The translations under genes and the position numbers were made by a program. Shown here in pieces: positions 18,643 to 58,100 of a DNA stretch of 64,000 bases (the stretch's first letter is position 1; the number at the start of each line of letters is the position of its first letter). The notes beneath the pieces were generated by a model, which was not told the origin of the DNA, did no database searches, and saw only the letters and a program-made list of their open reading frames with translations. Origin of the DNA: Eledone cirrhosa (taxonomy: Eukaryota). Where the stretch lies: assembly GCA_964016885.1 (NCBI GenBank), contig OZ024740.1, positions 46,128,001 through 46,192,000 of the forward strand. The letters are read 5' to 3'.

Positions 18643-18649
18643 TTATATT

Positions 18650-19603: not shown

Positions 19604-19948
19604 TTCTTCTGGTTTTATAATTTCACAAATGTTTGCCAATAGAGAGAGAGAGTCGGTTTCTAACATAGATACAAGACTCTCTCATTGGAATTTACACATC
19701 AACTAGGTATATATGTATGCATGCATGTGTAGATATGGATGTTATTGTATGTGTGGATGTTTTGAGTTGTATGTGTGCATGTGTATATGCAGTTATTAGA
19801 TGCAACATTTTTGGAATATTTTACATACTTTTACTGTTCCATTAATGGATTGTACTTGTAATTTCCTAACTAGTTGTTTTTTTTTCCTGTTCCTGTGAAG
19901 CCCAGCTTCTCAAGAATTGTATTGAAGCAGTTACTAAGGCAGTTACTA
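19604..19948 (-). mobile_element. 5'-truncated 3' end of the R4/Dong-like LINE (same family as 37880-41994), bounded by (TATG)n
   Basis: Reverse complement matches ~41620-41994 (LEKLGFTGT..., 3' UTR ending aaaaccagaagaa followed by CATA repeats). Confidence 0.9.
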
Positions 19949-19994
19949 TGTATGTATGTATGTATGTATGTATGTATGTATGTATGTATGTATG

Positions 19995-20604
19995 TCAGGT
20001 CACCAGTTGGTGCTACTGGTAACATGTATCCCAGTACAACCTGTCTCATGGTCGGGTCGTTGGCGACTAAACTGGCAACCCCACCAAGGTTTCTTGGTGA
20101 GGAGGGTGACTTTGGACATCCTGCAGGACTAAAAACAAAACCTGTCAAAGGGCAAGGGAGCTCTTAAGACTCAATAGCCATCCAAAATCACCGGGAGAGA
20201 TGACCCCTTAGCCTTTGTCAAGGCAGAATTCTAGGAGAAGGAAAACTCTGATATAACACCTGCAACCCTGATGGTATCCAATGATGTTGACTTGTTCTTC
20301 TTTTTGGTAAATATCATCTTGGTTAAGAGAGTGGGACTGGCTTTGTGCAGTGCCTTTGTTCACTATAAAAGCTTCACAGCACAGGCATTGCTTTATATCT
20401 GGAGATCTCTCTGCACTTGTCATCACATGGTACCATGGGCCCTGCACTATGTGTCAATAATGGTCACAAGTGTAGTCTTTGTACCAGAGTTTTCAAGTCG
20501 CTGGCTGGACTAAAAAGTCACATTCGTTCAGCGCATCGGTAGGGGTTCTCCTACATGGATATAAAGTAGTGGCCGTACTCGAAAACGAGTTGGCAGCCAC
20601 CACC
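19995..20604 (+). mobile_element. Internally deleted RTE-like LINE (5' UTR joined to the ORF C-terminus and 3' end), flanked by (TATG)n
   Basis: The 3' part encodes a C2H2 finger, HKCSLCTRVFKSLAGLKSHIRSAHR*. The 5' part has diverged relatives at ~23270-23410 (-) and ~37765-37820 (-). Confidence 0.55.
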
Positions 20605-21086: not shown

Positions 21087-21164
21087 TACTTTGGAAAGAT
21101 CATGTTACCAATAAAAAAAAACATGCAGCGGTTGAGTTGCACTTCAATGTTATTTTGTGAATTG

Positions 21165-26884: not shown

Positions 26885-27416
26885 TCTATACAAACACCTT
26901 ACCCAGGCCTGTGTCTTGTGTTGGGGTGGAGACTAACCTATGTGTAAACCCCATGGTCATTCTATACAAACACCTTACCCAGGCCTGTGTCTTGTGTTGG
27001 GGTGGAGACTAACCTATGTGTAAACCCCATGGTCATTCTATACAAACACCTTACCCAGGCCTGTGTCTTGTGTTGGGGTGGAGACTAACCTATGTGTAAA
27101 CCCCATGGTCATTCTATACAAACACCTTACCCAGGCCTGTGTCTTGTGTTGGGGTGGAGACTAGCCTATGTGTAAACCCCATGGTCATTCTATACAAACA
27201 CCTTACCCAGGCCTGTGTCTTGTGTTGGGGTGGAGACTAGCCTATATGTAAACCCCATGGTCATTCTATACAAACACCTTACCCAGGCCTGTGTCTTGTG
27301 TTGGGGTGGAGACTAGCCTATGTGTAAACCCCATGGTCATTCTATACAAACACCTTACCCAGGCCTGTGTCTTGTGTTGGGGTGGAGACTAGCCTATATG
27401 TAAACCCCATGGTCAT
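26885..27416. repeat. 76-bp minisatellite, 7 near-identical copies
   Basis: Unit tctatacaaacaccttacccaggcctgtgtcttgtgttggggtggagactaRcctatRtgtaaaccccatggtcat starts at 26885, 26961 and so on to 27341. Confidence 0.97.
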
Positions 27417-27509
27417 TCGTGAGGAAATAAAGAAAGCTCTAGAATATATGCTACACTGATTACCTATTAATAAAAACAGTAATAAAGTGTCTTACTTGAA
27501 TGTCGAAAA

Positions 27510-30879: not shown

Positions 30880-31965
30880 GGGTCCAAAGAGAACATATTT
30901 TTAGTCAGGCTCCTTAATTTTATAATAAAATGAGAAAAGTGTTTTATATTGACAAAAAGGAATAATTCCATTTTTACTATTTAATAAATTTAAATTGAAG
31001 GTTAAAATTTCAATCGCCTCGGTTAAACAAAGATTACACTTGGATCTTTCGCTTATATGGCCTTTCAGTATTAATTAGAGACCATTTAATATTATAATTA
31101 ATCTTATCTTCCTTAAGGGACCAGACTAATTTTGCCAGAGAAGTTGTATTTTTCAGCTTCTTGTTTTTAAAAGAATGAGTATGAGCATAGAATCTAGTTT
31201 TGAATTTAGTGGCAGTAGCACCTATATAATTAAAACAATTATCCCTAGTTGAAACCTCATATCTATAAATAACATTAGTTTAAAGATATTTACCTCCAAA
31301 TGGATAATTATTAGGAATTCTACAATTACATTCAGTCACTAAAGGTTAACTTTACCTTTCATCCTTACGGGGTCAATAAAATAAAGTATCAGTTATGCAC
31401 TGGGATAATTGCTGGCTTTGTGCCAAAAGTAGAAACAATTATTGAATATACCCCTGTTATGATCACTACCAGCAAAGATGTTAGTGGTATACCTAGTTTT
31501 ATCAAGATCACTAAAATCAGTATCGATTCTAGAAGCCCTACTATTGATTTGGGTATTTACATTGTTGTTAACAATATTATCATTGTTCCAAGTATCAATA
31601 CCACTACCATTGAGAATGTAATTATTACCAAGATTAGTGAGTGTTTCATTTGCGATATTAAGAGTAGAAATACATTCATTAAGAGTATTATTGTCAACCA
31701 GGATATTATTGCTATTAGTATTATTAGTGGAACTAATACCTATACTATTTGTAGAGGGTCCAGTTTTAGTTAAAGATCTACCATTTATTCTAAAGGAATT
31801 AAGTTTCTTTTTATTGTTCATTGCTATGTAGTCTGCCAAATTAGGGGTAGTAGGAAAGAATAATTTCACATTATTTTTATTTAATATCTTATAATATCTA
31901 TGGCTGGGAGGAAAATTCCTATCCACTATATCAAAGAATAACTTAGGTATATTAGAAGCGACCAT
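30880..31965 (-). mobile_element. PLE C-terminal remnant (linker + GIY-YIG) interrupted by a SINE fragment (~31340-31442, +)
   Basis: NIPKLFFDIVDRNFPPSHRYYKILNKNNVKL...TPNL, then CNCRIPNNYPFGGKYL*TNVIYRYEV...YIGATATKFKTRFYAHTHSF. Confidence 0.85.
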
Positions 31966-33246: not shown

Positions 33247-33824
33247 AGGAAAAGCGAAGTAGTTTCAGATGTTCAAGTCTTTTAATAATAATTGTTTCTA
33301 CTATTGGCACAAGGCCAGAAAATTACCCAGTACATTACTGGTACTTTATTTTATCGACCCCGTAAGGATGAAAGGCAAAGTTAACCTCTTTTAAAGTCTT
33401 TTAATAATAATGCTGTGATATATATTTCAATGGCGACAGTGGTCACACTGTACCGTGCGCCAATGCCGCGACATCGTCAGACAGCTTGTTACATAATAAG
33501 GTTATGTTTCCGAGGCAATTTCGTTGAAATCTGCGGTAGCTAATGGTCAACTTCCTTCGGACCTGCGCCTGCGCAGACCGGTGGGAGTGAATTGGTACTC
33601 ACAAGGGAACGGATGAAGACCCCAAGAGCACACACTTCGTCCGTTCCCATGTCGATTCAATTTGGATTGCCTCGGAAACATAACCTTATTATGTTACAAG
33701 CTTTCTGACGATGTCGCGGCACTGGCGCACGGTACAGTGCGGCCACTGTCGCCATTGAAATATATATCACAGCATTATTATTAAAAGACTTGAACATCTG
33801 AAACTACTTCGCTTTTCCTTATTC
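33242..33824. mobile_element. Foldback/MITE with ~170-bp TIRs; the left TIR is split by a SINE fragment with an 18-bp TSD
   Basis: Left arm (33242-33291 plus 33413-33530) is the reverse complement of ~33653-33824. aagtcttttaataataat is duplicated at 33274 and 33395 around the minus-strand SINE piece. Confidence 0.88.
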
Positions 33825-34179: not shown

Positions 34180-36543
34180 TGTAGTGACCTACATTCCGCG
34201 GGTTCACTTACATTCTCTGTGCGTGATTTGGCTCAGCTTAGCCAATCAGCGCCAGTAGAAGAGGATGTATTCCTACGCGTCCTGAGAGAGAAATTACCCG
34301 CAAAGATTTGAGGGATCTCACTCTTCCAGCTCGACCGTGCCAACTACTTTTCTTTCGCCGTGAAATCACTAGCCAATATGTAACACAACAATTTAACCAC
34401 GCCTGGCAACACCTAACAGCCAGTAGCCCGTGTCTTTCTGAAATCTTAATTCGTTTGTTTTATTTCTCTTGGCATGCCAGCTCAACCTTTGTTAATAAAT
34501 AATGTAAAAACAAGCTAAAGTCGTTGTCAATATTCCTCTCATATCTTTCTACCAAAGATGGTTCCTCGTGGCAACATTACAACTTCTAAATACACTTTCC
34601 TGCTAAACTGGTGACCGACGTAAGAATTTTACGCAGCCTTTTTGTTCAATGCAACTAATGAAAATACAAAATATCCCTTTTAAAATTGTAAAAAAATTAG
34701 CAGTATTTCAAAAACTTTTCGCCACGAGGAAATTTCAAAATGGCTACCGACAAGTCCTGTCTACAATCAACAACGACAACAGCTGCAGCAGCGGCAGCGA
34801 CAACATTGTTTAGCCACTAACCAACAACAGGGAATAGTGAGATGGCAGCTTCATAGCCTTACCGACGCAAACCACCACACATCATATTGTTGACTTCCAC
34901 GCTTTCACCTGTTCTATCGTCTCTACCGTTTAAAAAGAGAAAAAAGTAAAATATGGAAGTAGTTTTTTTTTTTTAAAAAGAACAACACGTGGTTTAACTT
35001 ACCACAAGGACTCGAGAAATTAAGACATTAGTTTTCTCACCATTATGGCGTCAGACGTGGCTGCCATGTTGGTGACTCTGGGTTCTTCAACGCTCGACTT
35101 CGACTCCACGGAAGATTCATTGTGACTTTGCTTTGACAACAACAACTCTGCTAGCTCCCTAGTAAGAGCGATCCCAAAGAAAAAAGAAGCGAACTTTTTG
35201 TTGAGAGAGAAGAAACAATTCTTTCTTCCTTTTTTTTTTCAGGTATTTATTTTGGACATTTATTTTTTTTAAACTGTGTTATATGAAAATTCATTTCTCT
35301 CTATCATTGTATATGTGACCGCACGCACACATTTTCTTTGCTGTATTACATGCCTGCATATATACACACACCAACATGTTGTTGTCTATAGTATGTGATC
35401 TTCGAGCGTCGTAATATTCTGCGAGATCCCTTTTCACCTTCTGGAGGTACCAAAACATGCTGTCGACACTTGCAGCTTAATTCACCTGCACCGCAACACG
35501 AGAATGCTAATTGCAGCTGAACTCAAACAGTTTCGCATCTCGTTGCACATTCATCGTCCATAACAACCTCTATCTTGTTATCTTGCCCAACTCACCGGGA
35601 AAACAACAAATAGAACTGGACTTGTCAGCATTTCCACCACTTCTGTGGATTCGCCCGAATTATGGAACTGCAACCCACCTACAGATTCAGCTTGCTTTTT
35701 TTCTTATCAAAGCAACCAGCCATTTTTTCCTGGCTCCCTAGCACATTCGGCAATACATCTGGGAGGCCAACATTTTCTCGCCTACCCATCATCTTCTTGC
35801 CAGCACTGGTAAACTACCATAATAGCTTCATCCACAGCTACTGGTACAACACTTACCATTAACATTTAATGCAAGAACAGCAACTTCGCCCATGTCAGAC
35901 TTTATCCGTTTTCTGTTGGACCTTTGGTGGTCACGTATAAACTACAAAACAGCTAGTCATTTGACACAGCGGCTCAACACGGCCCCTAGCGCCTCATTTT
36001 TTTCTTGCATGCATCCTTTGCTCAATTATTTTTTCACTGATGTGCTCTTTCAGCATTTGTTCTTGCTGATTCAATAATCTGTATCGACTACCGTCTAGAA
36101 GTGGGGTATTGTAGTGACCTACATTCCGCGGGCTCACATACATTCTCTGTGCGTGATTTGGCTCAGCTTAGCCAATCAGCTAAAGAAGAGGATGTATCCC
36201 TACGCGTCCTGAGAGAGAAATTACCCGCAAAGATTTGAGGGATCTCTCTCTTCCAGCTCGACCGTGCCAAGGAAAACAACTACTTTTCTTTCGCCGTGAA
36301 ATCACTAGCCAATATGTAACACAACAATTTAACCACGCCTGGCAACACCTAACAGCCAGTAGCCCGTGTTTTTCTGAAATCTTAATTCGTTTGTTTTATT
36401 TCTCTTGGCATGCCAGCTCAACCTTTGTTAATAAATAATGTAAAAACAAGCTAAAGTCGTTGTCAATATTCCTATCATATCTTTCTACCAAAGATGGTTC
36501 CTCGTGGCAACATTACAACTTCTAAATACACTTTCCTGCTAAA
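34180..36543 (+). mobile_element. Non-autonomous LTR retrotransposon (probably Ty3/Gypsy-derived), LTRs 34180-34607 and 36110-36543
   Basis: Two ~430-bp direct repeats (TGTAG...CTAAA), a 4-bp TSD TCAC (34176-34179 and 36544-36547), PBS tggtgaccgacgt at 34609 and PPT agaagtgggg before the 3' LTR. No gag/pol ORF is visible. Confidence 0.92.
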
Positions 36544-37190: not shown

Positions 37191-37879
37191 CGAAGCAAAT
37201 AGGATAGAATGGATATTGTAATCTGAAAAAAAGGGTCGAGGGGCATTCATGGTTTAACTGAAACAATACAACAACATTGGCGTTCCTGCCCTCCATATCC
37301 CCTCCTTACGCCCTGTTATCGGGTCGCAGATAACCAACTATAGAAGTCAGCCCTGCCATTTGGAATAGCTATTTCAGCTATATTCCGTGGTATTACTTTC
37401 TTCATTCTGCCTGCTGTAACCTACGTGGCGGCTTGTGCCTGGGTTCTACACGGCAGAGAGCGTTCTCCCACATTGTTTTGGCATGTATCTTTGGAATAGC
37501 GATGGTATAAGGGTGCTGAAATCTACGTCTTAACATGCATATATATAGACATGCATACATACAAGATGGCTGCCCTCTCGTTATCGAGTATGGCCATTGC
37601 ACGATATAACATTATTAATAATTATCAATTAATGCTATCATGCAATGCCTGTGAGTGAAGATTTTAAAGTGAGGAAAGACTGTGCACTGAACCAATTCCA
37701 CTCTCTGAGCGACAGTAGCTATAACCCGAAAAGAAGAAAAGATCAACATCATCGGTAACTACTGAGCCACAGGTTTTATATCGGAGTTGCCTTCTCCTAG
37801 AAGAATGCCCTGACAAAGTGGTTTAACTGCGGGATCGGGTATCCAGCCCGATTATTTCTACATACATACATACATACAT

Positions 37880-40800
37880 TCCATCAGTCAACGCGATCAG
37901 TCGCATATTTTGGCGTGGGAGACTATTTATTAAATTTAAGATGAATACTATCTCCGACAGTAATGCCACAACTACAGCCAGGTTGAATAACTGGTTATTC
38001 TTCTAACTATCCCTTCTGAAGACACCTTTTATTCGAATTCGTAGAGATATCCGACTAAATACATAATTCATTTTACAAGGATGTGCTACAAACAGCATGG
38101 CTGAACACAACATCAACAAGAAAATTAAGGAAGTATCGAAGACAAATAACAAAGAAGGTAATCAAACTTTATTCAGTTGTAGCTACAGAAGAAACCGAAA
38201 TTATAAATCGCATTTCTCTTGGAGTTGCGAACTTAATAATGATTTATTTAATTGTTATAAAATGGCAAAAAACAATCCCCCCATTGGCTATATGAATAGA
38301 ATGAAGCTACACTGGGACGAAATGCACCCAGAGCTAAATTATTTCACAGCGAAACAATTACGCCAACAAGTGACGTTTGTTGAACGTAAAAATAAGATAA
38401 ATATTATTAATTGTAAGTCCCCCCACAACAAACATGGAATCAACAACACGTGCTACAGATCGCCATGCTACTAGACTTCCTAGCAGCCAGGTCGAACAGC
38501 GCCTTGAAACAACTATGCCTGTAAGAAACTTGACACCACCTGTACCATCTAAGTCTACCTCGAATGCTGGGGAAAACACTATCGATAATAATAATAATCG
38601 AAGAAATAATAATAATAATCGAATAAATGTGACACCACGTATACCATCCGAGTCTACCTCGACTGTTGTGGAAAATACTATCGATAATGATAATCAAAAG
38701 TATAAACAATTGAAAATTTCCCTCAACGAAATCTTCCAGAGAGAAATTAACTCATGTATAAATATCTCTGTGTTAAAATGACAATGGTGAATAAAAAAAC
38801 AAATAATGAAATACTACGTGTTATTGACGAAATAGGGGATGAATATTTACGACGGATAAAAACCCCAACATTTTGGCAAATCAACGCCAGTTTATATGCC
38901 TTAGCAATGACAGTGAAGCATTATCTTAGTGATAGCAGAGATATTAACAAGAACAAAACACCACCAAAAATACCATCATATATAACTAAAATAGAAAAAA
39001 AGAGTGCTGACCTACGAAAAAACATAGGACATGTGATAATGCTCCTTACATGCAAACAAACACCAAAAAACGTCACTCCTCACCAACAAAGAGTGAAAAA
39101 TAAAATAGAGACGATGTTTGGTAACAGTAGAATCAGAACTCTCCAATATAAGCTGATCACCCTCAAACAAGAATTGAGAGCTGTTAGCGAAAAACGCCGA
39201 TACCTGAAGAAGGTAGATGAGAGAAAAATGCTTAATAAAAGATTCATACGAAACCAAACATCACTCTATAGAGATATGAAGGGCAAAATAATAAGTGTCA
39301 CTGAGGCCCCATCCCAGAAAGACATAGATTCCTTTTGGAGAAAAATATGGGGTGAAAAGAAGAATTTCAACCAAGATGCAGTGTGGCAAAGAGAAATCCG
39401 AAAGAACTATTGCTCCTACACTACAACAAAAACATACGAAATAAGTGAGGGTACCCTTGAGACTGTGATAGGAAAACTCCAAGATAAGAAAACACCAGGA
39501 AGAGACATGATTGTCGGCTACTGGTACAAAAAACTAATATTCTATCGGAGGTATCTTACTGACCTCTACCAACAAGTTCTTAAGGGAGATACACTTATAC
39601 CAGAATGGTTGACATTAGCACAAACGTTACTGGTCCCAAAGAACAAAGACACCCACTTGGCAAAAAACTACCGACCCATTGCATGCCAGAACCTGATGTA
39701 TAAGATGTATACAGCCTGCCTCAACCTATTCCTCCAAGATCACTGTGAAAATAATAACATCATCACAGATGAACAAGCAGCTGGAAAGAAAAGGGTTTGG
39801 GGATGTGCTGAACAACTCCTAATCAACAAAGCTGCGATGTTGGAGGTGCGACAACTTAGGAGGAATATGACTACAGTCTGGCTGGACTACAAGAAAGCTT
39901 TCTATTCTGTTCCCCACTCTTGGATGATAGAAGCCCTCCAACTTGCTAAAGTCCCAGACATTATCGTCAGAGCCATAGAGAGGCTGTCTTCTTCTTGGGC
40001 TACTATCCTAAGGGAGGACTCTATTTTCACTGATAAAATAAAATATTGCAGGGGTATATTTCAGGGGGCCAGTATCTCTGTGATATTATTCATCTTGTCA
40101 TTAAACCCCTTGTCCTTTCTGCTCAAGAAATGTGAGGGATACATCATTGACTCACAGGAGGACAGAAATACAAACCTAACCCATAATTTCTTTGTGAACG
40201 ATCTGAAACTCTATGCCAAGAACATGGATGGGATGAAGAAAATTCTTGACCTGGTTACAACGTTCTCAAAGGATATAGGAATGGAGTTTGGCCAAGATAA
40301 ATGCTCATACATGACTGTAAAGTGGGGGGAAACAACAACCCAATCTAGCAACATTCTCATCAATGGCCTAACTGTTTCACCGATATCTGATGAGGACTGT
40401 TACAGATACCTGGGGATAGATGAGAACATATCCTATAATGGTATCTGTAATAAAGAACGCGTAACCAGGGAATACTACACCCGTTTAAGAAAGATCTGGT
40501 CATCGGAACTCTCTGCGCAAAACAAAATAGTGGCTCACAATGTGTTTGCTGTGCCTGTCCTAACACCAACGTTTGGAATACTCAATTGGACGATAGACGA
40601 AATCCGAGCAGTTGATGTTGGAACTCGAAAAATACTGAACAACACCGGAAACTTCCACATCAACAGTGACATAGACCGCCTTTACTTGAAACGTAAGCAG
40701 GGAGACAGGGGCCTAACATCAGTCCAGACAACATTTGAATGTCGCATCATATCTCTCCGACAACATCTACGAACCTCGAAGCGTAGGAGCCCGCTTCTCG

Positions 40801-41994
40801 AGCAAGTCTATCTGCATGAAACAGATAAGATCATGAGAGTTGGGAAGGAACTCCTTGAGAGATATTCCCTGTGTGATAATCAAAAACTCACACCCAGGGA
40901 TGTCGCTCAGCAGTATCGTAGTGAATCCATGGATGAAAAACTGCATGCCTATCAGCAAAAAATCATGCATGGATATGTTACCAGGAAGCTCCAGAGTGAG
41001 AGTAATATAGATAAGGAAAGTAGTCTATCTTGGACCAACAACCGCTATATTGGCTCCCACTTTGAAGGATACGCTTTTGCAATCCAGGAACAGGAGATTA
41101 GCACGAAATACCTGATTCACAAAGAGATAGGGATGCAGGCAAAACACCTAGATGTGATAACAAGTGCAGATTCTGCAGAACTAACATCGAGGATATCACC
41201 CATGTCATCAGCAGCTGTCCAAAGATGTCATTGCGGTACTATCTACCTATGAGGCATGATGTAGTGGCCAAAACACTGTACAACGCAGTTCGTAAAAAAG
41301 ATAGCCCCGATAATAAACACATTAAAAGCTACAGCAATGTGGAAGACATCCATGTACATAATATGAAAGAGTACTGGTGGAATGTTCCAGTAAAAACCCC
41401 AATAAAATGCAGGCATAACAGACCAGATATTATGATATGGGACAGGGAGAAGAAAACATGCACAGTAGTGGAAATTAGCTGCCCAACAGATGCCAATATA
41501 ATATCAAAGATTAGTGAAAAGGAGAATATTTATGCAGAACTGATGAGAAATCTGCAAATACTCCACCCTGATTACACCTTCAGATTTATGCCTGTGATTA
41601 TTGGGGCACTGGGATATGTTAGTAACTGCATCAATACAAATCTTGAGAAGCTAGGCTTCACAGGAACAGAAAGAACACAACTAGTTAGGAAATTACAAGT
41701 ACAATCCATTAATGGAAGAGTAAAAATATGTAAAACATTCCAAAAATTTTGCATCTAATAACTGCATATACACATGTACAGATACAAAGCATATACACAT
41801 GCACACATACAACTCAAAACATACACATCCACACATACAATAACATCCATATCTACACATGCATGCATGCAGACATACATACATATCTACCTAGTTGATG
41901 TTGTGTAAATTCCAATGAGAGAGTCTTGTGTCTATGTTAGAAACCCACTCTCTCTCTATTGGTAAAACTTTGTGAAATTATAAAACCAGAAGAA
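37880..41994 (+). mobile_element. Near full-length R4/Dong-like non-LTR retrotransposon (RT + CCHC + RLE), frameshifted, with (CATA)n at both ends
   Basis: ORF pieces at 38097-38474, 38434-38781, 38754-41252 and 41225-41758. RT motifs NYRPIAC, WLDYKKAF, GIFQG, FVNDLKL and YRYLG. CRFC..EDITHVISSC lies in the shifted frame, followed by RHD, RPDI..D, VEISCP and K..Y (RLE). Confidence 0.93.
38754..41252 (+). pseudogene. Reverse transcriptase portion of the LINE ORF (catalytic FVDD changed to FVND)
   Basis: 832-aa ORF with non-LTR RT motifs. The second copy reads tttgtggacgat (FVDD) at 42601. Confidence 0.9.
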
Positions 41995-42027
41995 CATACA
42001 TACATACATACATACATACATACATAC

Positions 42028-42390
42028 AGCTGCCCACTTGATGTAAACGTTGTCAGAAAAATACAGGAGAAGGAGGACATCTACGGACCGTTGATGAGGA
42101 GTTTACAAATCCAGTATCCAAGATACACCTTTAGCTTCATACCCATCATTATTGGAGCTACGGGTTAGATACCAACCCGCTTGGACCAAAGTATGACTGA
42201 ACTTGGATTTGCGGACAAAGGGCGCAGTTCCCTAATTCATAGTCTACAAATGGCTGCGATAGCTGGCACCTTCAAAATTTTCAAAACATTCTTGCGATTC
42301 AAGGGATGACAATTTCTTTTCTTTTACAACCTTGTCACCAGGAAGGTGGCCGGTCAAAAAAATATACTCGAAATTAAGAGAAAGAGATAA
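42028..42390 (+). mobile_element. 3' fragment of a different R4-like family (RLE end), bounded by (CATA)n
   Basis: SCPLDVNVVRKIQEKEDIYGPLMRSLQIQYPRYTFSFIPIIIGATG is homologous to, but diverged from, SCPTDANIISKISEKENIYAELMRNLQ, and the 3' UTR differs. Confidence 0.85.
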
Positions 42391-42447
42391 CATACATACA
42401 TACATACATACATACATACATACATACATACATACATACATACATAC

Positions 42448-44402
42448 ATAAAATATTGCAGTGGTATATTTCAGGGGGACAGTCTCTCTGTGATATTATT
42501 CATCTTGTCATTAAACATCTTGTCCTTTCTGCTCAAGAAATGTGAGGGATACATCATTGGTGCACAGGAGGACAGAAATACGAACCTAACCCATAATTTC
42601 TTTGTGGACGATCTGAAACTATGCCAAGAACATGGATGGGATGAAGAAAAATCTTGACCTGGTTACAACGTTCTCAAAGGATATAGGAATGGAGTTTGGC
42701 CAAGATAAATGCTCTTACATGTCTGTAAAGCGGGGAAAAACAACAACCCAATCTAGCAACATTGTCATCAATGGCCTAACTGTTTCACCAATATCTGATG
42801 AGGACTGCTACAGATACCTGGGGATAGATGAGAACATATCCTATAATGGTATCTGTAATAAAGAACGCGTAACCAGGGAATACTACACCCGATTAAGAAA
42901 GATCTGGTCATCGGAACTCTCTACGCAAAACAAAACAGTGGCTCACAATGTGTTTGCTGTGCCTGTCCTAACACCAACGTTTGGAATACTCAATTGGACG
43001 ATAGACGAAATCCGAGCAGTTGATGTTGGAACTCGAAAAATACTGAACAACACCGGAAACTTCCACATCAACAGTGACATAGACCGCCTTTACTTGAAAC
43101 GTAAGCAGGGAGACAGGGGCCTAACATCAGTCCAGACAACATTTGAATGTCGCATCATATCTCTCCGACAACATCTACGAACCTCGAAGCGTAGGAGCCC
43201 GCTTCTCGAGCAAGTCTATCTGCATGAAACAGATAAGATCATGAGAGTTGGGAAGGAACTCCTTGAGAGATATTCCCTGTGTGATAATCAAAAACTCACA
43301 CCCAGGGATGTCGCTCAGCAGTATCGTAGTGAATCCATGGATGAAAAACTGCATGCCTATCAGCAAAAAATCATGCATGGATATGTTGCCAGGAAGCTCC
43401 AGAGTGAGAGTAATATAGATAAGGAAAGTAGTCTATCTTGGACCAACAACCGCTATATTGGCTCCCACTTTGAAGGATACGCTTTTGCAATCCAGGAACA
43501 GGAGATTAGCACGAAATACCTGATTCACAAAGAGATAGGGATGCAGGCAAAACACCTAGATGTGATAACAAGTGCAGATTCTGCAGAACTAACATCGAGG
43601 ATATCACCCATGTCATCAGCAGCTGTCCAAAGATGTCATTGCGGTACTATCTACCTATGAGGCATGATGTAGTGGCCAAAACACTGTACAACGCAGTTCG
43701 TAAAAAAGATAGCCCCGATAATAAACACATTAAAAGCTACAGCAATGTGGAAGACATCCATGTACATAATATGAAAGAGTACTGGTGGAATGTTCCAGTA
43801 AAAACCCCAATAAAATGTAGGCATAACAGACCAGATATTATGATATGGGACAGGGAGAAGAAATCATGCACAGTAGTGGAAATTAGCTGCCCAGCAGATG
43901 CCAATATAATATCAAAGATTAGTGAAAAGGAAAATATTTATGCAGAACTGATGAGAAATCTATAGATACTCCACCCTGATTACACCTTCAGATTTATGCC
44001 TGTGATTATTGGGGCACTGGGATATGTTAGTAACTGCCTCAATACAAATCTTGAGAAGCTAGGCTTCACAGGAACAGAAAGAACACAACTAGTTAGGAAA
44101 TTACAAGTACAATCCATTAATGGAAGAGTAAAAATATGTAAAACATTCCAAAAGTTTTGCATCTAATAACTGCATATACACATATACAGATGCAAAGCAT
44201 ATACATATGCATACATACAACTCAAAACATCCACATCCACACATACAATAACATCCATATCTACACATGCATGCATGCAGACATACATACATATCTACCT
44301 AGTTAATGTTGTGTAAATTCCAATGAGAGAGTCTTGTGTCTATGTTAGAAACCGACTCTCTCTCTATTGGTAAAACTTTGTGAAATTATAAAACCGGAAG
44401 AA
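42448..44402 (+). mobile_element. 5'-truncated second copy of the R4/Dong-like LINE, followed by (CATA)n
   Basis: Near-identical to ~40038-41994. ORFs at 42632-43660 and 43633-43965. Confidence 0.95.
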
Positions 44403-44448
44403 CATACATACATACATACATACATACATACATACATACATACATACA

Positions 44449-45006
44449 GTAAACCTCTAGTCATTTATGCTGAGGAAATGCAAAATGGATTTTGGCGAGG
44501 ATAAATGCTCCAATATGATTATTACGCGAGGAAAAATTACAAACCAATCTAGCAACATCTCTATCAATGACTCGAATGCTTCACCGGCCTCTGATGATGA
44601 CTGCTACAGGTACTTAATGATAGATGAAATATATCTCGTGATAGAATTAGTAACGGGAAACGAGTAAGCAAGAAATATAATACCCAGATAAAAAAGTATA
44701 TAGTCTCTATGCACAACTAAATGTGGCTCCTAATGTGTTTACTGTACCTGTTCTAAAACTAACATTTTGAATACTTGACTGGCCGCTAGATGAGATCCAA
44801 GCCATTGGTGTTATAAGACAAAAGTTCTAATCGGTACTGGAAATTTCCACATCAACAGTGACATAGACGACCTCTACCTAAAACATAAACAAGTAGACAG
44901 GTTTAACATCAATCCAGACAGCATTTGAATGTCGCATCATATCCCTCTGACAATATCTACGAACCACCAAGTGTAGAAGCCCATTCATAGAACAAGTCTG
45001 TCTACA
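44449..45006 (+). mobile_element. Older, diverged internal RT fragment of the same R4-like family
   Basis: MDFGEDKCS...SDDDCYRYLMIDE. ggaaatttccacatcaacagtgacatagac matches ~40646-40677. Confidence 0.85.
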
Positions 45007-45007
45007 T

Positions 45008-45080
45008 GAGGCCAAGGACACCAGAAGTCTCCACTGCCAAGGGCACGACCGCGAACCTGTCGGAGAGCGACCGGTACTTG
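45008..45080 (-). mobile_element. Short CRE-like fragment
   Basis: Matches ~15546-15616 (ggacaccagaagtctc...aacctgtcggagagcgaccggta). Confidence 0.85.
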
Positions 45081-46669: not shown

Positions 46670-48342
46670 AGAGGGCGACCCTTTGGGACCCCTCCTGTTC
46701 GCCCTTGGTATTGACCACATCGCCCGGAGTATCACGGCCCCTCTCAACGTTTGGTATCTGGATGATGCTACGTTGGGCGGGCCCGTACGGACGGTCTGCC
46801 AAGACCTTCAATCGGTGATTCCTGCCCTGGCGGGAATCGGCCTCCAGGTCAACTCGGCCAAGTCGGAGGTGGTGAATGTCAGCCTCGATGCTGCGAGCTT
46901 TGCAGCCTCAGTCTTGGACGTGCGGTCCATTCTCTGCCAGGTTCAGGTGACCTCCAAAGAGGATGTCCTCATCCTCGGGTCACCGATCCACCCGCCGGCC
47001 ATCCGCTCCACTATCAGGTCCAGGCTTCAACAGTTCCAAACTCTCACGAGCCGACTGGGCTTGATCGACGGCCACCCAGCTCTCTTTCTGCTGAGGAACT
47101 GCTTCACCATGCCGAAGCTCCTCTATACACTCCGCAGCGCTCCATGCTACACACAGACATCACCCAGACATCGCTGACCTCGATACTTGTATCCGAGCAG
47201 CAGCCGAGGGGAAATGCAACGTCAAGTTTGACGACATAGAGTGGCAACAGGCCACTTTACCGGTCAGGTATGGCGGCCTTGGCCTCCGGTCCCCGATCTC
47301 ACTAGCTTTGCCGGCGTATCTTTCGTCGGTAACCTCGTGCCGCGTCCTCGTCAGCAGGGTTCTTCAAAACACAACAGAACCCTCTGTGTTCAGAGAACGT
47401 GAGGCCGCCTGTGAGACGTGGGACCGGATGGGACTTAGCCCAGTAGACGTCCCTCCTCCGTCTCCCCCTGTTGACGTCAAGTCCCCTCAACGCACTTGGG
47501 ATGCCATCCAGTGCAGCCTGGCCTCAGACAGGCTCACGCGCCAGCTCGACCAGCACCGCCTTGCTTGTTTTCGTGCGGCCTCCAAACCCCACAGTGGTGC
47601 CTGGCTCCATGCCCTGCCCTCCTTCTCCACTGGCACGCAGCTAGACAACCATAGCCTGCGTATCGGCGTTTCCCTGAGGCTCGGCCTCCGGATCTGCTAG
47701 CCACACCAATGTCACTGCGGTTCCATCGTGATCTCTTTCAGCCTCCACCCGCTTTCCTGTCGCCACAGTGCCGGCCGCATTCCACGCCATGCTGCCCTCA
47801 AAGAGGTCATTAAGCATAGCTTGGACGCTGCAGGCTTCCCTTCCCAGCTCGAGCCGGTGGGGCTGGATCGAGGAGACGGCAAAAGTCCAGATGGCATGAC
47901 AATCTTCCGGTTCCGCAGTGGCAAACCCCTCGTCTGGGATGCCACTTGCACCGACACTTTCTACAGCCGCAACCTGGTGCAGTCTGCGACTGACCCAGGT
48001 TCTGCTGCACGTCGGGTTGAGGGGGCCAAACTCCTCAAATACCGGTCGCTCTCCGACAGGTTTGCGGTCGTTCCCCTGGCAATGGAGACTTCTGGTGTCC
48101 TCGGCCCCAGGGTTACCTCCTTACTCACCACTATAGGCGCTGAACTGGCCAGCCGCAGGTGTGAGCCCCGCGAGTTGGAGTGGCTTTTCCAGCGCGTCTC
48201 CCTTGCCGTCTTCCGGGGAAACACCTTCTCCATTATGTCCGCCGGGGCTGTGGGTGGGCCCCACCGCGTGCCAATACATTAGTTAAATACCATTCTTTCA
48301 TCTGATACAACACAATAAAGACTAAAGTGTTAAAAAAAAAAA
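46670..48342 (+). mobile_element. 5'-truncated CRE-like non-LTR retrotransposon (RT C-terminal half + RLE), frameshifted, with poly-A tail
   Basis: GDPLGPLLF...WYLDDATL (RT), LPVRYGGLGLR, SGAWLHALP, and RH...EP...DGKSPDGMT..VWDATC (RLE). Conspicuously GC-rich. Confidence 0.9.
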
Positions 48343-48624: not shown

Positions 48625-48815
48625 GTCCAACAGGGTGACTCTTTGGGCCCTTTTCTATTTGCTCTTGGTATAGACCTCATTGCTCGGAGTATCACAGCCC
48701 CTCTCAACGTTTGGTACCTGGATGATGCTATATTGGGCTCTTCCAGCGCATCTCCCTTACCATCCTCTGGGGATATGTCTTCTCCATTCTGTCCACCTGG
48801 GCAGTGGGGCGGCCA
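48625..48815 (+). mobile_element. Internally deleted CRE-like derivative
   Basis: The VQQGDSLGPFLF...WYLDD segment (like 46670-46780) is joined directly to the ORF-end segment ttccagcgcatctccctt (like 48187-48260). Confidence 0.8.
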
Positions 48816-49154: not shown

Positions 49155-52100
49155 AACACACGAGAAGGTAATACACACATCTAGGACCATATACAACACA
49201 CGAGCAGGTAATACACACATATAGAACCACATACAACACACGAGCAGGTAATACACACATATAGGACCACATACAACACACGAGCAGGAAATACACGCAT
49301 CTAGGACCACGTACAACACACGAGCAGGTAATACACACATCTAGGACCATATACAACACACGAGAAGGTAATACACACATCTAGGACCATATACAACACA
49401 CGAGAAGATAATACACACATCTAGGACCATATACAACACACGAGATGGTAATACACATATCTAGGACCACATACAACACACGAGAAGTTAAAACACACAT
49501 CTAGGACCACATACAACACACGAGAAGGTAATACACACATCTAGGACGATATACAACAGACGATAAGGTAATACACACATCTAGGACCACATACAACACA
49601 CAAGAAGGTAATACACACATCTAGGACCACATACAACACACGAGAAGATAATACACACATCTAGGACCACATACAACACACGAGAAGGTAATACACACAT
49701 CTAAGACTACATGCAACACACGAGAAGGTAATACACATATCTAGGACCACATACAACACACGAGAAGGTAATACACACATCTAGGACCACATACAATACA
49801 CGATAAGGTAATACACACATCTAGGGCCATATACAACACACGATAAGGTAATACACACATCTAAGACTACATACAACACACGAGAAGGTAATACACACAT
49901 CTAGGACCACATACAACACACGATAAGGTAATACACACATCTAGGACCATATACAACACACAAGAAGGTAATACACAGATCTAGGGCCACATACAACAGA
50001 CGAGAAGGTAATACACACATCTAGGACCACATACAACACACGAGAGGGTAATACACACACCTATGGCCACATAGAACACACGAGAAGGTAATACACACAT
50101 CTAAGACCACATACAACACACGAGAAGGTAATACACACATCTAGAACCATATACAACACACGAGAAGATAATACACACATCTAGGACCACATACAACACA
50201 CGAGAAGGTAATACACACATCTAAGACCATATAAAACACACGAGAAAGTAATACACACATCTAGGACCACATACAACACACGAGAAGGTAATACACACAT
50301 CTAAGACCACATACAACACACGAGAAGGTAATACACACATCTAAGACTACATACAACTCACGAGAGGGTAATACACACATCTAGGATCACATACAACACA
50401 CGAGAAGGTAATACACACATCTAGGACCACATACAACACACGAGAAGGTAATACACACATCTAGGACCACATACAACACACGAGAAGGTAATGCACACAC
50501 CTAGGACCACATACAACACACGAGAGGGTAATACACACATCTAGGACCACATACAACACACGAGAAGATAATACACACATCTAGGACCACATACAACACA
50601 CGAGAAGTTAATACACACATCTAGGACCATATACAACGGACGAGCAGGTAATACACACATCTAGGACCATATACAACACACGAGAAGGTAATACACAGAT
50701 CTAAGACCATATACAACACACGAGAAGGTAATACACACATCTAGGACCACATACAACACACGAGAAGGTAATACACACATCTAGGACCATATACAACACA
50801 CGATAAGGTAATACACACATCTAAGAATACATACAACACACGAGAAGGTAATACACACATCTAGGACAATATACAACACACAAGAAGGTAATACACACAT
50901 CTAGGACCACATACAACACACGAGAAGGTAATACACACATCTAGGACAACATACAACACACCAGAAGGTAATACACACATCCAGGACCACATACAACACA
51001 CGAGAAGATAATACACACATCTAGGACCACATACAACACACGAGAAGATAATACACACATCTAGGACCACATACAACACACGAGAAGGTAATACACACAT
51101 CTAGGACCACATACAACACACGAGAAGATAATACACACATCTAGGACCACATACAACACACGAGAAGGTAATACACACATCTAGGACCACATACAACACA
51201 CGAGAAGATAATACACACATCTAGGACCACATACAACACACGAGAAGGTAATACACACATCTAGGACCACATACAACACACGATAAGGTAATACACACAT
51301 CTAGGACCATATACAACACACAAGAAGGTAATACACACATCTAGGACCACATACAACAGACGAGCAGGTAATACACACATCTAGGACCAAATACAACACA
51401 CGAGAAGGTAATACACACATCTAAGACTACATACAACACACGAGAAGGTAATACACATATCTAGAACCATATACAACACACAAGAAGGTAATGCACACAC
51501 CTAGGATCACATACAACACACGAGAGGGTAATACACACATCTTGGACCACATACAACACACGAGAGGGTAATACACACATCTAGGACCATATGCAACACA
51601 CGAGAAGGAAATACACACATCTAGGACTACATACAACACACGAGAAGGTAATACACACACCTATCGCCACATACAACACACGAGAAGGTAATACACACAT
51701 CTAAGACCACATACAACACACGATAAGGTAATACACACATCTAGAACCATATACAACACACGAGAAGATAATACACACATCTAGGACCACATACAACACA
51801 CGAGAAGGTAATACACACATCTAGGACCACATACAACACACGAGAAGGTAATACACACATCTAAGACCATATACAACACACGAGAAGGTAATACACACAT
51901 CTAGGACCACATACAACACACGAGAAGGTAATATACACATTCTAGGACCACATACAACACACGAGAAGGTAATACACACATCTAGGACTACAAACAACAC
52001 ACGAGAAGGTAATACACACACCTATGGCCACATACAACACACGAGAAGGTAATACACACACCTATGGCCACATACAACACACGAGAAGGTAATACACACA

Positions 52101-55100
52101 TCTAGGACCACATTCAACACACGAGAAGGTAATACACACATCTAGGACCACATACAACACACGAGAAGGTAATACACACATCTTGGACCACATACAACAC
52201 ACGAGAAGGTAATACACACATCTAGGACCACATACAACACACGAGAAGGTAATACACACATCTAAGACTACATACAACTCACGAGAAGGTAATACACACA
52301 TCTAGGATCATATACAACACACGAGAAGGTAATACACACATCTAGGACCACATACAACACACGAGAAGGTAATACACACATCTAGGACCACATACAACAC
52401 ACGAGAAGGTAATACACACATCTTGGACCACATACAACACACGAGAAGGTAATACACACATCTAGGACCACATACAACACACGAGAAGGTAATACACACA
52501 TCTAGGACCATATACAACACACGAGAAGGTAATACACACACCTAGGACCACATACAACAGACGAGCAGGTAATACACACATCTAGGACCATATACAACAC
52601 ACGATAAGGTAATACACACATCTAAGACTACATACAACACACGAGAAAATAATACACACATCTAGGACCATATGCAACACACGAGAAGGTAATACACACA
52701 TCTAGGACCACATACAACACACGAGAAGGTAATACACACATCTAGGACCACATACAACGCACGAGAAGGTAATACACACATCTAGAACCATATACAACAC
52801 ACGAGCAGGTAATACACACATCTAGCACCACATACAACACACGAGAAGGTAATACACACATCTAGGATCACATACAACACAGGAGAAGGTAATACACACA
52901 TCCAGGACCACATACAACACACGAGAAGATAATACACACATCTAGGACCACATACAACACACGAGAAGGTAATACACACATCTAGGACCACATACAACAC
53001 ACGATAAGGTAATACACACATCTAGGACCATATACAACACACAAGAAGGTAATACACACATCTAGGACCACATACAACAGACGAGCAGGTAATACACACA
53101 TCTAGGACAAATATAACACACGAGAAGGTAATACACACATCTAAGATTACATACAACACACGAGAAGGTAATACACATATCTAGGACCATATACAACACA
53201 CGAGAAGGTAATGCACACACCTAGGACCACATACAACACACGAGAGGGTAATACACACATCTAGGACCACATAAAACACACGAGAAGATAATACACACAT
53301 CTAGGACCACATACAACACACGAGAAGTTAATACACACATCTAGGACCATATACAACACACGAGAAGGTAATACACACATCTAGGACCACATACAACACA
53401 CGAGAAGGTAATACACACATCTAGGACCATATACAACGGACGAGCAGGTAATACACACATCTAGGACCATATACAACACACGAGAAGGTAATACACACAT
53501 CTAAGACTACATACAACACACGAGAAGGTAATACACACATCTAGGACCACATACAACACACGAGAAGGTAATGCACACATCTAGGACCATATACAACACA
53601 CGAGAAGGTAATACACACATCTAGGACCATATACAACACACGATAAGGTAATACACACATCTAAGAATACATACAACACACGAGAAGGTAATACACACAT
53701 CTAGGACCATATACAACACACAAGAAGGTAATACACACATCTAGGACCACATACAACAGACGAGCAGGTAATACACACATCTAGGACCACATACAACACA
53801 CGAGAAGGTAATACACACATCTAAGACTACATACAACACACGAGAAGGTAATACACATATCTAGGACCATATACAACACACGAGAAGGTAATACACACAC
53901 CTAGGACCACATACAACACACGAGAGGGTAATACACACATCTAGGACCATATGCAACACACAAGAAGGAAATACACACATCTAGGACTACATACAACACA
54001 CGAGAAGGTAATACACACACCTATGGCCACATACAACACACGAGAAGGTAATGCACACATCTAAGACCACATACAACACACGATAAGGTAATACACACAT
54101 CTAGAACCATATACAACACACGAGAAGATAATACACACATCTAGGACCACATACAACACACGAGAAGGTAATACACACATCTAGGACCACATACAACACA
54201 CGAGAAGGTAATACACACATCTAAGACCATATACAACACACGAGAAGGTAATACACACATCTAGGACCACATACAACACACGAGAAGGTAATACACACAT
54301 CTAGGACCATATACAACACACGAGAAGGTAATACACACACCTAGTACCACATACAACACACGAGAGGGTAATACACACATCTAGGACCATATGCAACACA
54401 CGAGAAGGAAATACACACATCTAGGACTACATACAACACACGAGAAGGTAATATACACACCTATGGCCACATACAACACACGAGAAGGTAATACACACAT
54501 CTAAGACCACATACAACACACGAGAAGGTAATACACACATCTAGAACCATATACAACGCACGAGAAGATAATACACACATCTAGGACCACATACAACACA
54601 CGAGAAGGTAATACACACATCTAGGACCACATACAACACACGAGAAGGTAATACACACATCTAAGACAATATACAACACACGAGAAGGTAATACACACAT
54701 CTAGGACCACATACAACACACGAGAAGGTAATACACACATTCTAGGACCACATACAACACACGAGAAGGTAATACACACATCTAGGACTACAAACAACAC
54801 ACGAGAAGGTAATACACACACCTATGGCCACATACAACACACGAGAAGGTAATACACACACCTATGGCCACATACAACACACGAGAAGGTAATACACACA
54901 TCTAGGACCACATTCACCACACGAGAAGGTGATACACACATTCTAGGACCACATACAACACACGAGAAAGTAATACACACATCTAGGACTACAAACAACA
55001 CACGAGAAGGTAATACACACACCTATGGCCACATACAACACACGAGAAGGTAATACACACATCTAAGACCACATACAACACACGATAAGGTAATACACAC

Positions 55101-58100
55101 ATCTAGAACCATATACAACACACGAGAAGATAATACACACATCTAGGACCACATACAACACACGAGAAGATAATACACACATCTAGGACCACATACAACA
55201 CACGAGAAGGTAATACACACATCTAAGACCATATACAACACACGAGAAGATAATACACACATCTAGGACCACATACAACACACGAGAAGGTAATAGACAC
55301 ATCTAGGACCACATACAACACACGAGAAGGTAATACACACATCTAAGACCACATACAACACACTAGAAGGTAATACACACATCTAAGACTACATACAACT
55401 CACGAGAAGGTAATACACACATCTAGGACCACATACAACACACGAGAAGGTAATACACACATCTAGGACCACATACAACACACGAGAAGGTAATACACAC
55501 ATCTAGGACCACATACAACACACGAGAAGGTAATACACACATCTAGGACCACATACAACACACGAAAAGGTAATACACACATCTAGGACCATATATAACA
55601 CACGAGAAGGTAATACACACACCTAGGACCACATACAACAGACGAGCAGGTAATACACACATCTAGGACCATATACAACACACGATAAGATAATACACAC
55701 ATCTAAGACTACATACAACACACGAGAAAATAATACACACATCTAGGACCATATGCAACACACGAGAAGGTAATACACACATCTAGGACCATATGCAACA
55801 CACGAGAAGGTAATACACACATCTAGGACCGCATACAACACACGAGAAGGTAATACACACATCTAGAACCATATACAACACACGAGCAGGTAATACACAC
55901 ATCTAGCACCACATACAACACACGAGAAGGTAATACACACATCTAGGACCACATACAACACAGGAGAAGGTAATACACACATCCAGGACCACATACAACA
56001 CACGAGAAGATAATACACACATCTAGGACCACATACAACACACGAGCAGTTAATACACACATCTAGGACCATATACAACACACGAGAAGGTAATACACAC
56101 ATCTAGGACCACATACAACACACGAGAAGGTAATACACACATCTAGGACCATATACAACGGACGAGCAGGTAATACACACATCTAGGACCATATACAACA
56201 CACGAGAAGGTAATACACACATCTAAGACTACATACAACACACGAGAAGGTAATACACACATCTAGGACAATATACAACACACGAGCAGTTAATACACAC
56301 ATCTAGGACCATATACAACACACGAGAAGGTAATACACACATCTAGGACCACATACAACACACGATAAGGTAATACACACATCTAGGACCACATACAACA
56401 CACGAGAAGGTAATACACACATCTAGGACCATATACAACACACGATAAGGTAATACACACATCTAAGAATACATACAACACACGAGAAGGTAATACACAC
56501 ATCTAGGACAATATACAACACACAAGAAGGTAATACACACATCTAGGACCACATACAACACACGAGAAGGTAATACACACATCTAGGACAACATACAACA
56601 CACGAGAAGGTAATACACACATCTAGGACCACATACAACACACGAGAAGGTAATACACACATCTAGGACAACATACAACACACGAGAAGGTAATACACAC
56701 ATCTAGGACAACATACAACACACGAGAAGGTAATACACACATCCAGGACCACATACAACACACGAGAAGATAATACACACATCTAGGACCACATACAACA
56801 CACGAGAAGGTAATACACACATCTAGGACCACATACAACACACGATAAGGTAATACACACATCTAGGACCATATACAACACACAAGAAGGTAATACACAC
56901 ATCTAGGACCACATACAACAGACGAGCAGGTAATACACACATCTAAGACTACATACAACACACGAGAAGGTAATACACATATCTAGAACCATATACAACA
57001 CACAAGAAGGTAATGCACACACCTAGGATCACATACAACACACGAGAGGGTAATACACACATCTTGGACCACATACAACACACGAGAGGGTAATACACAC
57101 ATCTAGGACCATATACAACACACGAGAAGGAAATACACACATCTAGGACTACATACAACACACGAGAAGGTAATACACACACCTATCGCCACATACAACA
57201 CACGAGAAGGTAATACACACATCTAAGACCACATACAACACACGATAAGGTAATACACACATCTAGAACCATATACAACACACGAGAAGATAATACACAC
57301 ATCTAGGACCACATACAACACACGAGAAGGTAATACACACATCTAGGACCACATACAACACACGAGAAGGTAATACACACATCTAAGACCATATACAACA
57401 CACGAGAAGGTAATACACACATCTAGGACCACATACAACACACGAGAAGGTAATATACACATTCTAGGACCACATACAACACACGAGAAGGTAATACACA
57501 CATCTAGGACTACAAACAACACACGAGAAGGTAATACACACACCTATGGCCACATACAACACACGAGAAGGTAATACACACACCTATGGCCACATACAAC
57601 ACACGAGAAGGTAATACACACATCTAGGACCACATTCAACACACGAGAAGGTAATACACACATCTAGGACCACATACAACACACGAGAAGGTAATACACA
57701 CATCTTGGACCACATACAACACACGAGAAGGTAATACACACATCTAGGACCACATACAACACACGAGAAGGTAATACACACATCTAAGACTACATACAAC
57801 TCACGAGAAGGTAATACACACATCTAGGATCATATACAACACACGAGAAGGTAATACACACATCTAGGACCACATACAACACACGAGAAGGTAATACACA
57901 CATCTAGGACCACATACAACACACGAGAAGGTAATACACACATCTTGGACCACATACAACACACGAGAAGGTAATACACACATCTAGGACCACATACAAC
58001 ACACGAGAAGGTAATACACACATCTAGGACCATATACAACACACGAGAAGGTAATACACACACCTAGGACCACATACAACAGACGAACAGGTAATACACA

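What the first reader, a model, noticed from the sequence alone, without database searches (positions are those of the whole stretch)
37859..45006. Train of RLE retrotransposons stacked in (CATA)n: a candidate new microsatellite-specific R4/Dong lineage
Seen: (CATA)n - near-full LINE - (CATA)n - 3' piece of a second family - (CATA)n - truncated copy - (CATA)n - old fragment, all in one orientation. A fifth piece at 19604-19948 also has CATA on both sides in the same polarity. CATA at the 5' junctions of differently truncated copies cannot be explained by tails alone. Known: RLE-encoding R4-clade Dong targets (TAA)n, while ACAY targeting is known for APE-type Waldo elements of the R1 clade. Inference: two diverged RLE families here share (CATA)n specificity and regenerate their own target, which would be a self-propagating safe-harbour system and a possible sequence-specific integration tool.
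Basis: partly seen in the sequence, partly recalled or inferred. Interest (0 to 1): 0.75.

Follow-up and report, generated by a model that had tools for sequence, protein, structure and literature searches.

The report
Jumping genes that target CATA repeats
In an octopus-like genome, several broken copies of copy-and-paste jumping genes sit stacked inside the simple repeat CATACATA, and distant relatives elsewhere sit in CATA or CTTA repeats at both ends, so this branch likely aims at four-letter repeats instead of the three-letter TAA repeat known for its cousin Dong.

Summary
The layout is real: four pieces of restriction-like-endonuclease (RLE) LINEs in one orientation, separated by (CATA)n, plus a fifth at 19.6-19.9 kb. 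The host is a cephalopod (reflectin-like ORF, Argonauta homologue). The train alone cannot prove targeting, because each inner array is also the tail of the copy upstream. Independent loci give the stronger evidence. Of 13 metagenome loci in the same clade, the 6 that hold the 5' end all start at a (CATA)n or (CTTA)n array, and 4 of these have the same repeat at both ends. RT trees put them, with the window copy, in a clade (100/100) apart from Bombyx Dong/(TAA)n loci and a 28S-inserted R4-like element; grouping with Dong proper is rejected. Dong-R4 LINEs are known in octopus, but I found no paper naming a CATA/CTTA target. Repbase and Dfam could not be checked. Genome-wide junctions could not be tested, the window copies are dead, and the safe-harbour or tool claim is untested. 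Verdict: new target variant of a known kind.

The parts
37859..37879 (+). (CATA)~5 array; 5' flank of A1 and 5' flank of D2 (not a tail of either)
37880..41994 (+). A1, near full-length R4-clade RLE LINE, dead: coding region in four overlapping frames (38067-38474, 38401-38781, 38751-41252, 41102-41758); RT active-site DD reads ND; CCHC knuckle and RPD..E..K..Y endonuclease motif in the last frame
   Evidence: (PF00078 E 1.3e-22)
38220..38402 (+). N-terminal three-helix domain, predicted Myb/SANT-like DNA-binding domain (weak fold match)
   Evidence: best Z 6.0, rmsd 3.4, 62 aligned; no Foldseek match E<=0.001
41995..42026 (+). (CATA)8: tail of A1 and 5' flank of B
42027..42390 (+). B, 3' piece of a second family (end of RLE ORF with one stop, plus 3' UTR)
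42391..42450 (+). (CATA)15: tail of B and 5' flank of A2
42448..44402 (+). A2, 5'-truncated copy of family A, 42 differences from A1, with an 880-bp near-identical tract
44403..44446 (+). (CATA)11: tail of A2 and 5' flank of C
44449..45006 (+). C, old decayed RT fragment, 74% nt to A, no 3' end
19605..19946 (-). fifth piece, 3' end of an A-family copy, same 3' junction as A1 and A2, short duplication at its 5' junction
19947..19994 (-). (CATA)12 on -, 5' flank of the fifth piece and of D1
19995..20604 (+). D1, short non-autonomous element flanked by (TATG)n on both sides; likely an internally deleted RTE-type LINE (C2H2-like remnant; class assignment from recall)
37563..37858 (-). D2, shorter relative of D1 (74% over 186 bp), (TATG)n at both ends on its own strand, head to head with A1

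Best explanation
The train is a stack of separate, now broken insertions of R4-clade RLE retrotransposons from a lineage that likely targets four-letter repeats, (CATA)n here and (CTTA)n in sister families, and each insertion leaves repeat on both sides that would serve as the next target. Shown: the anatomy, the flanks, the clade, the unequal decay of the pieces. Inferred from R2/R4 biology: the protein binds the repeat (predicted Myb-like domain plus RLE), nicks the (TATG)n strand and primes reverse transcription on an RNA that ends at a fixed junction before CATA; pairing of a (CAUA)n RNA tail with the primer probably helps; early stops give 5'-truncated copies. Inferred history: C and D2 first shared one array; A2, B and A1 later entered that array one by one; A1 and A2 were then partly homogenised by gene conversion.
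For: (1) Five of five 5' junctions in the window lie at CATA in sense polarity; such arrays are 0.6% of the non-satellite window. (2) Two of these arrays (A1, fifth piece) are no same-strand tail. (3) 59 metagenome loci were chosen by protein motif alone; 13 fall in this clade. The 6 of 13 that hold the 5' end all have an array 165-284 bp before the ORF: CATA in L004, L007, L009; CTTA in L001, L002, L003. Four of these 6 (L002, L004, L007, L009) also show a 3' array, always the same repeat in the same polarity; L001 and L003 show none in the flank held. These families are 45-64% identical in RT. (4) Control: in the same scan 10 of the 46 loci outside the clade have (TAA)n within 30 bp of the start of the coding match, 5'-truncated copies included, as expected for Dong-like elements. 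(5) Clade support 100/100, stem 0.64; Dong/TAA group 95/94; A1 with Dong rejected, p-AU 3.7e-39. (6) Pieces differ in age: C is 74% and riddled with stops, A2 nearly intact; outside the shared tract A1 and A2 differ at 24 of about 490 and 17 of about 585 bases. No upstream half of C, A2 or B lies before the train. (7) 3' ends of A1, A2 and the fifth piece, and of L002, L006, L007, L009, L010, meet the repeat at C.
Against: No genome was held, so the genome-wide 5'-junction test was not done. In one search, 24 of 4,669 loose-end rows were shown and none has a CATA consensus. No 5'-truncated junction of this clade was caught outside the window; full-length copies might carry a few repeat units on their own RNA. 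5 of 11 clade loci that hold the ORF end show no 3' array in the 189-840 bp held (L001, L003, L008, L014, L016; 3' UTRs reach about 1 kb in L002, L006, L010). Five of the six 5' arrays sit at contig ends. Family D, probably not an RLE element, also sits in this repeat, which suggests tail pairing alone can give the pattern. The Myb-like fold match is weak. No biochemistry.
Confidence: 0.7

Rival explanations
1. The preference is real but set by the RNA, not the protein: a loosely specific nuclease or existing nicks open DNA, and only sites where the (CAUA)n tail pairs with the primer strand go on to insertion.
For: Family D, with a (TGTA)n tail and likely another nuclease type, also has the repeat on both sides in 2 of 2 copies. 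A one-base CATA/CTTA difference between close families is easy to get by a tail change. Microsatellite 3' ends are described for the octopus RTE (PMC9115989 passage).
Against: R4-clade elements are described as mostly target-specific (PMC4640811); L060 of the same group sits at one 28S site with a target duplication. The N-terminal domain is conserved across the clade.
Confidence: 0.2
2. The train arose in one or few events by template jumping: the RT ran from one RNA onto the CATA-tailed 3' end of the next, so inner arrays are tails only.
For: All pieces point one way and each inner array is the tail of the upstream piece. One read joint in run X9 links 41994 via CATACATA to 40720 (111 reads, number of independent molecules not given).
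Against: The pieces differ strongly in decay. It does not explain the 5' arrays of A1, the fifth piece or six full-length loci elsewhere.
Confidence: 0.05
3. A2 is a local duplication of A1 or an assembly artefact, and the stack reflects recombination between CATA arrays.
For: A1 and A2 differ at only 1 site in 40529-41409 (longest identical run 452 bp, P = 0.0006 against even spread) and share a frameshift and four letters that differ from the other letter read in the runs.
Against: Flanking parts differ by 3-5%, and A2 carries the runs' letter at 5 of 5 listed sites in 40038-40528 where A1 does not. B, C and the outside loci are unexplained.
Confidence: 0.05

Closest known systems
Dong (Bombyx mori), DongAg, DongBg; R4 clade
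   Same: Single ORF with RT, CCHC and RLE; microsatellite on both sides in fixed polarity. A1 is 32% identical over 611 aa (E 2e-102) to a member of the cluster of B. mori AAA92147.1 (that this accession is Dong's protein is recalled, one search found no paper naming it).
   Different: Dong targets (TAA)n (PMC3812793; PMC3774820); these sit in (CATA)n or (CTTA)n and form a separate clade. Dong has a 5' HDV-like ribozyme; not established here.
R4 of nematodes (28S rRNA gene)
   Same: L060, inserted in LSU rDNA with a 14-bp duplication (named R4-like from recall), is a homologue (E 6e-56, 28% RT identity).
   Different: rDNA target; lies outside both the Dong/TAA group and the CATA/CTTA clade.
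Octopus 'Dong-R4' LINE families
   Same: Same superfamily label, abundant and recently active: 5 families, 1,129 recent near-full insertions in O. vulgaris (PMC13282606); a full-ORF Dong in O. bimaculoides (PMC9115989). Family A may well be one of these.
   Different: The word searches found no target repeat in these papers: 'CATA' and 'target' 0 hits in PMC13282606 text and its one held supplement; 'target site' 0 in PMC9115989; 'microsatellite' 0 in PMC8967140. Their consensus libraries were not compared.
Waldo (WaldoAg1, WaldoAg2, WaldoFs1; R1 clade)
   Same: Target ACAY repeats, which include (CATA)n.
   Different: APE-type elements; unrelated nuclease and domain order, so the shared target would be convergent.
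Togen ((TG)n) and HERO microsatellite-specific families
   Same: RLE elements that sit in microsatellites (PMC4640811).
   Different: Other clades and other repeats; not included in my trees.

Membership tests
RLE non-LTR retrotransposons | RT followed by CCHC knuckle and PD..D/E..K endonuclease, no N-terminal APE | tested here: met
   PF00078; motifs in A1 and in 7 of 7 CATA/CTTA loci examined; no APE family in Pfam scan
RLE non-LTR retrotransposons | variable 5' truncation, fixed 3' end | tested here: met
   depth rises from 56,709 in the first bin to 765,646 near the 3' end in X4 (summed contig depth, no copy number)
R4 clade | RT groups with R4/Dong rather than R2, NeSL, HERO or CRE | tested here: inconclusive
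   Groups with the Dong cluster and L060 against APE-type and other outgroups (SH-aLRT 99); 28-40% RT identity to these against E 1e-17 to 1e-28 for solved R2 proteins. No R2, NeSL, HERO or CRE sequence was available for the tree.
R4 clade | N-terminal Myb-like domain without N-terminal zinc fingers (recalled) | tested here: inconclusive
   Three-helix model, pLDDT 84-98 in the core; top matches Myb/SANT-like but Z at most 6.0
Dong in the strict sense | (TAA)n target | tested here: not met
   flanks are CATA or CTTA
Dong in the strict sense | monophyly with B. mori Dong | tested here: not met
   p-AU 3.7e-39
Dong in the strict sense | 5' HDV-like ribozyme | tested here: inconclusive
   Rfam gave no ribozyme; my descriptor found nothing in 13 of 13 regions, controls included
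Target-specific microsatellite elements | same repeat, same polarity, at both junctions of independent copies | tested here: met
   fifth piece, A1, L002, L004, L007, L009
Target-specific microsatellite elements | most 5'-truncated copies genome-wide abut the repeat | not testable with these tools
   no genome held; one search shows 24 of 4,669 loose ends
Target-specific microsatellite elements | sequence-specific nicking by the encoded nuclease | not testable with these tools
   needs biochemistry
Already named Repbase/Dfam family | match to a curated consensus with a CATA/CTTA target note | not testable with these tools
   libraries not available

The most novel reading that the evidence does not exclude
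An undescribed R4 sub-lineage has moved from three-letter to four-letter repeats, has switched between CATA and CTTA by one base, and borrows its transcription start from the target: a GGAYG motif like a downstream promoter element lies exactly 27 bases after an A of the upstream repeat in 5 of 6 full-length loci, so the repeat would be target, promoter half and regenerated product at once.
Probability: 0.25. Interest if true: 0.72.

Novelty: new variant of a known kind. Interest (0 to 1): 0.5.

Why it matters
If confirmed, it adds a new target class to RLE retrotransposons and gives a natural near-pair (CATA against CTTA, 52-64% RT identity, intact natural ORFs in L004, L007, L009) for asking whether protein or RNA tail sets microsatellite specificity, which one review calls not well understood (PMC3812793). 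It would also explain part of the link between Dong-R4 expansion and (CATA)n arrays in octopus genomes. As a gene-insertion tool it is doubtful: the target is a dispersed, unstable repeat, not one safe locus.

Tried and rejected
Own genome not held; metagenome records cannot be searched by handle. Viral contigs: 21 pattern hits, 0 relatives. Bacterial/archaeal genome contigs: 5 loci, only L060 informative; L061-L064 used as outgroups. Rfam on 9000-49200: 88 matches, all below gathering score and on simple repeats. Home-made HDV ribozyme descriptor: no hits in 13 of 13 regions including presumed controls, so uninformative. Folding of five short ends: only modest signals (A 3' UTR z -2.2, B 3' UTR z -2.0, D 3' end z -3.4; D 5' and A1 5' not significant). 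Foldseek on the N-terminal model: no match at E<=0.001. A1's RLE frame against AAA92147.1: no match, that record lacks this region. Monophyly of CATA-flanked elements was not rejected (p-AU 0.11), so the number of CATA/CTTA switches is open. The careful 42-row tree did not finish; the quick mixture tree is reported. Earlier-findings look-ups gave nothing relevant. Literature searches for a CATA-specific RLE element; none found. The Fell et al. 2025 survey is not held; Kojima and Fujiwara 2004 was seen only as a citation; their tables and supplements may bear on novelty. Rejected: chance adjacency; A2 as a plain duplication; membership in Dong proper.
Full report
Observation. The sequence, repeat scans and self-comparison confirm the layout: (CATA)5 - A1 (37880-41994) - (CATA)8 - B (42027-42390) - (CATA)15 - A2 (42448-44402) - (CATA)11 - C (to 45006), all on +, and a fifth A-type 3' piece at 19605-19946 on -. 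C has no 3' end. The fifth piece has 12 perfect units at its 5' side and only about 2 at its 3' side. All 6 of 6 perfect ACAT-class arrays of 16 bp or more in the non-satellite 40 kb abut these elements or family D; (AT)n arrays are more abundant (29) and lie at none of the five 5' junctions.

Host. A reflectin-like ORF at 18690-19343 matches Octopus bimaculoides and squid proteins, and the best named RT homologue is from Argonauta hians (47%). The host is a cephalopod, most likely an octopod (inference). No genome was held.

Anatomy. A1 covers the whole coding region of its 1,130-1,200-aa relatives but is split over four frames and its RT active-site motif is altered, so it is dead. It has RT (PF00078), a CCHC knuckle and an RPD..E..K..Y endonuclease motif, and an N-terminal three-helix domain whose best fold matches are Myb/SANT-like but weak (Z 6.0; none by Foldseek). 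B is a second family: 48% aa to A, 59% to L004, 56% to an Argonauta protein. C is 74% nt to A and decayed. Public runs of three species labels hold the family with strong 3' bias.

What the train can and cannot show. Each inner array is both the tail of one copy and the 5' flank of the next, so the train alone does not exclude tails plus template jumping. Three points go against that. The pieces differ in decay. No upstream halves of B, A2 or C lie before the train. And the arrays 5' of A1 and of the fifth piece are shared with the 5' ends of an opposite-strand family D (19995-20604 and 37563-37858), so they are tails of neither. A1 and A2 differ at 42 sites, but at only 1 in 40529-41409, where they share a frameshift: gene conversion after separate insertions, or a polishing artefact.

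Independent loci. A motif-based scan of metagenome contigs gave 59 loci. I put 34 of them in the first tree, leaving out duplicates and short ones; 13 fall in A1's clade. Six of the 13 hold the 5' end, and all 6 begin at an array: (CATA)n in L004, L007, L009 and (CTTA)n in L001, L002, L003. The other 7 start inside the ORF at the contig edge. Eleven hold the ORF end; 6 show a 3' array (L002, L004, L006, L007, L009, L010; L006 and L010 are one family) and 5 do not within 189-840 bp. Where both arrays are seen (4 loci) the repeat and polarity agree. As a control, 10 of the 46 loci outside the clade have (TAA)n within 30 bp of the start of the coding match, as Dong-like elements should; others there lack flank or show no array. 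Against my reading: no truncated junction of this clade was caught outside the window, and the 24 of 4,669 loose ends shown have no CATA consensus. One joint there (41994, CATACATA, 40720; 111 reads) hints at another stack but may be one molecule.

Phylogeny. Three RT trees agree (61 rows quick; 42 rows quick with mixture model in place of an unfinished careful run; 19 rows careful). A1, all CATA and CTTA loci and the Argonauta protein form one clade (100/100, stem 0.64). The B. mori AAA92147.1 cluster (Dong by recall), other insect and crustacean proteins and the (TAA)n loci form another (95/94). L060, inserted in LSU rDNA, lies outside both. A1 with Dong is rejected (p-AU 3.7e-39). A1's nearest rows are CTTA loci (83/82), but CATA monophyly is not rejected (p-AU 0.11). 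No R2, NeSL, HERO, CRE, Rex6 or DongBg sequence was in the trees.

Mechanism. Shown: flanks, fixed 3' junction, variable 5' truncation, domains. Inferred from R2/R4 knowledge: binding and nicking of the repeat, primed reverse transcription, tail pairing, and regeneration of the target on both sides (0.70). The main rival is selection by RNA-tail pairing alone (0.20); family D, likely an RTE derivative (recalled motif, untested), sits in the same repeat in the opposite polarity. A post hoc observation: a GGAYG motif lies 16-21 bases into L002, L003, L004, L007 and L009, exactly 27 bases after an A of the repeat, the Initiator-to-DPE spacing (recalled); L001 and A1 do not fit, and A1 has its own TCAGTC. 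My rough chance estimate is about 1 in 128, uncorrected. It suggests that transcription starts inside the target.

What is known. I saw passages only (word searches in the full text) of PMC13282606 (plus its one held supplement), PMC9115989, PMC8967140, PMC4640811, PMC3774820, PMC3812793, PMC3636483, PMC7650587, PMC3728117, PMC13580325, PMC13708176 and PMC5753468. They list TAA for Dong, DongAg and DongBg, ACAY for Waldo, AC for Mino, TC for Kibi, TTC for Koshi and TG for Togen, and record abundant Dong-R4 LINEs in octopus; the passages seen name no target for them. Nine searches found no CATA- or CTTA-specific RLE element. The library lacks subscription papers, and Repbase and Dfam were not available, so prior curation is quite possible.

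Verdict. Observation confirmed. It works like Dong but is not Dong in the strict sense: a new target variant within, most likely, the R4 clade. The safe-harbour or tool reading is untested and doubtful. Interest 0.5.

Noticed in passing
window 18690-19343 (-): Reflectin-like ORF; matches O. bimaculoides LOC106875838 (60% over 44% of the query) and squid reflectin-like A2.
   Followed up: partly
window 19995-20604 (+) and 37563-37858 (-): Family D, short non-autonomous element with (TATG)n on both sides, head to head with A-family copies in both clusters; likely RTE-derived.
   Followed up: partly
window about 46670-48285 (+); copies 15345-16151 (-), 45007-45080 (-), 48632-48738: Decayed GC-rich LINE of another kind (weak RVT_1, E 5e-4); CRE-like by recall. 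A 74-bp piece of it ends fragment C.
   Followed up: partly
window 40529-41409 and 42937-43817: 880-bp tract with one difference between A1 and A2: gene conversion or polishing artefact.
   Followed up: partly
window 4-8902 and 49155-64000: Two long satellites: (GTGTGGTG)n-like, about 1,120 units, and a 40-bp unit, 371 copies at 92% match.
   Followed up: no
window 18468-18650, 21157-21843, 22083-22346, 24764-24946, 31343-31443, 33279-33388: Many copies of a tRNA-like SINE family; octopus SINE by recall; ARAGORN not run.
   Followed up: no
window 26884-27418, 34180-34607 / 36110-36543: 76-bp minisatellite, 7 copies at 99%; and a 430-bp direct duplication at 95%.
   Followed up: no
L060 1-4250: Intact 1,268-codon R4-like element in eukaryotic LSU rDNA with a 14-bp duplication, inside a genome bin titled cyanobacterium: likely contamination.
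   Followed up: partly
L012 77-170; L012, L013 ends: (TAAA)n-flanked elements in the Dong/TAA group; L012 begins with a tRNA-like stretch before its ORF.
   Followed up: no
L042 904-971, L051 3765-3786: Truncated copies preceded by (TAC)n or (AGT)n arrays, possibly further target variants.
   Followed up: no
P0275, P0276: Fragments of the B. mori RT cluster filed as Pseudomonas aeruginosa proteins on 390-493-bp contigs; likely contamination.
   Followed up: no
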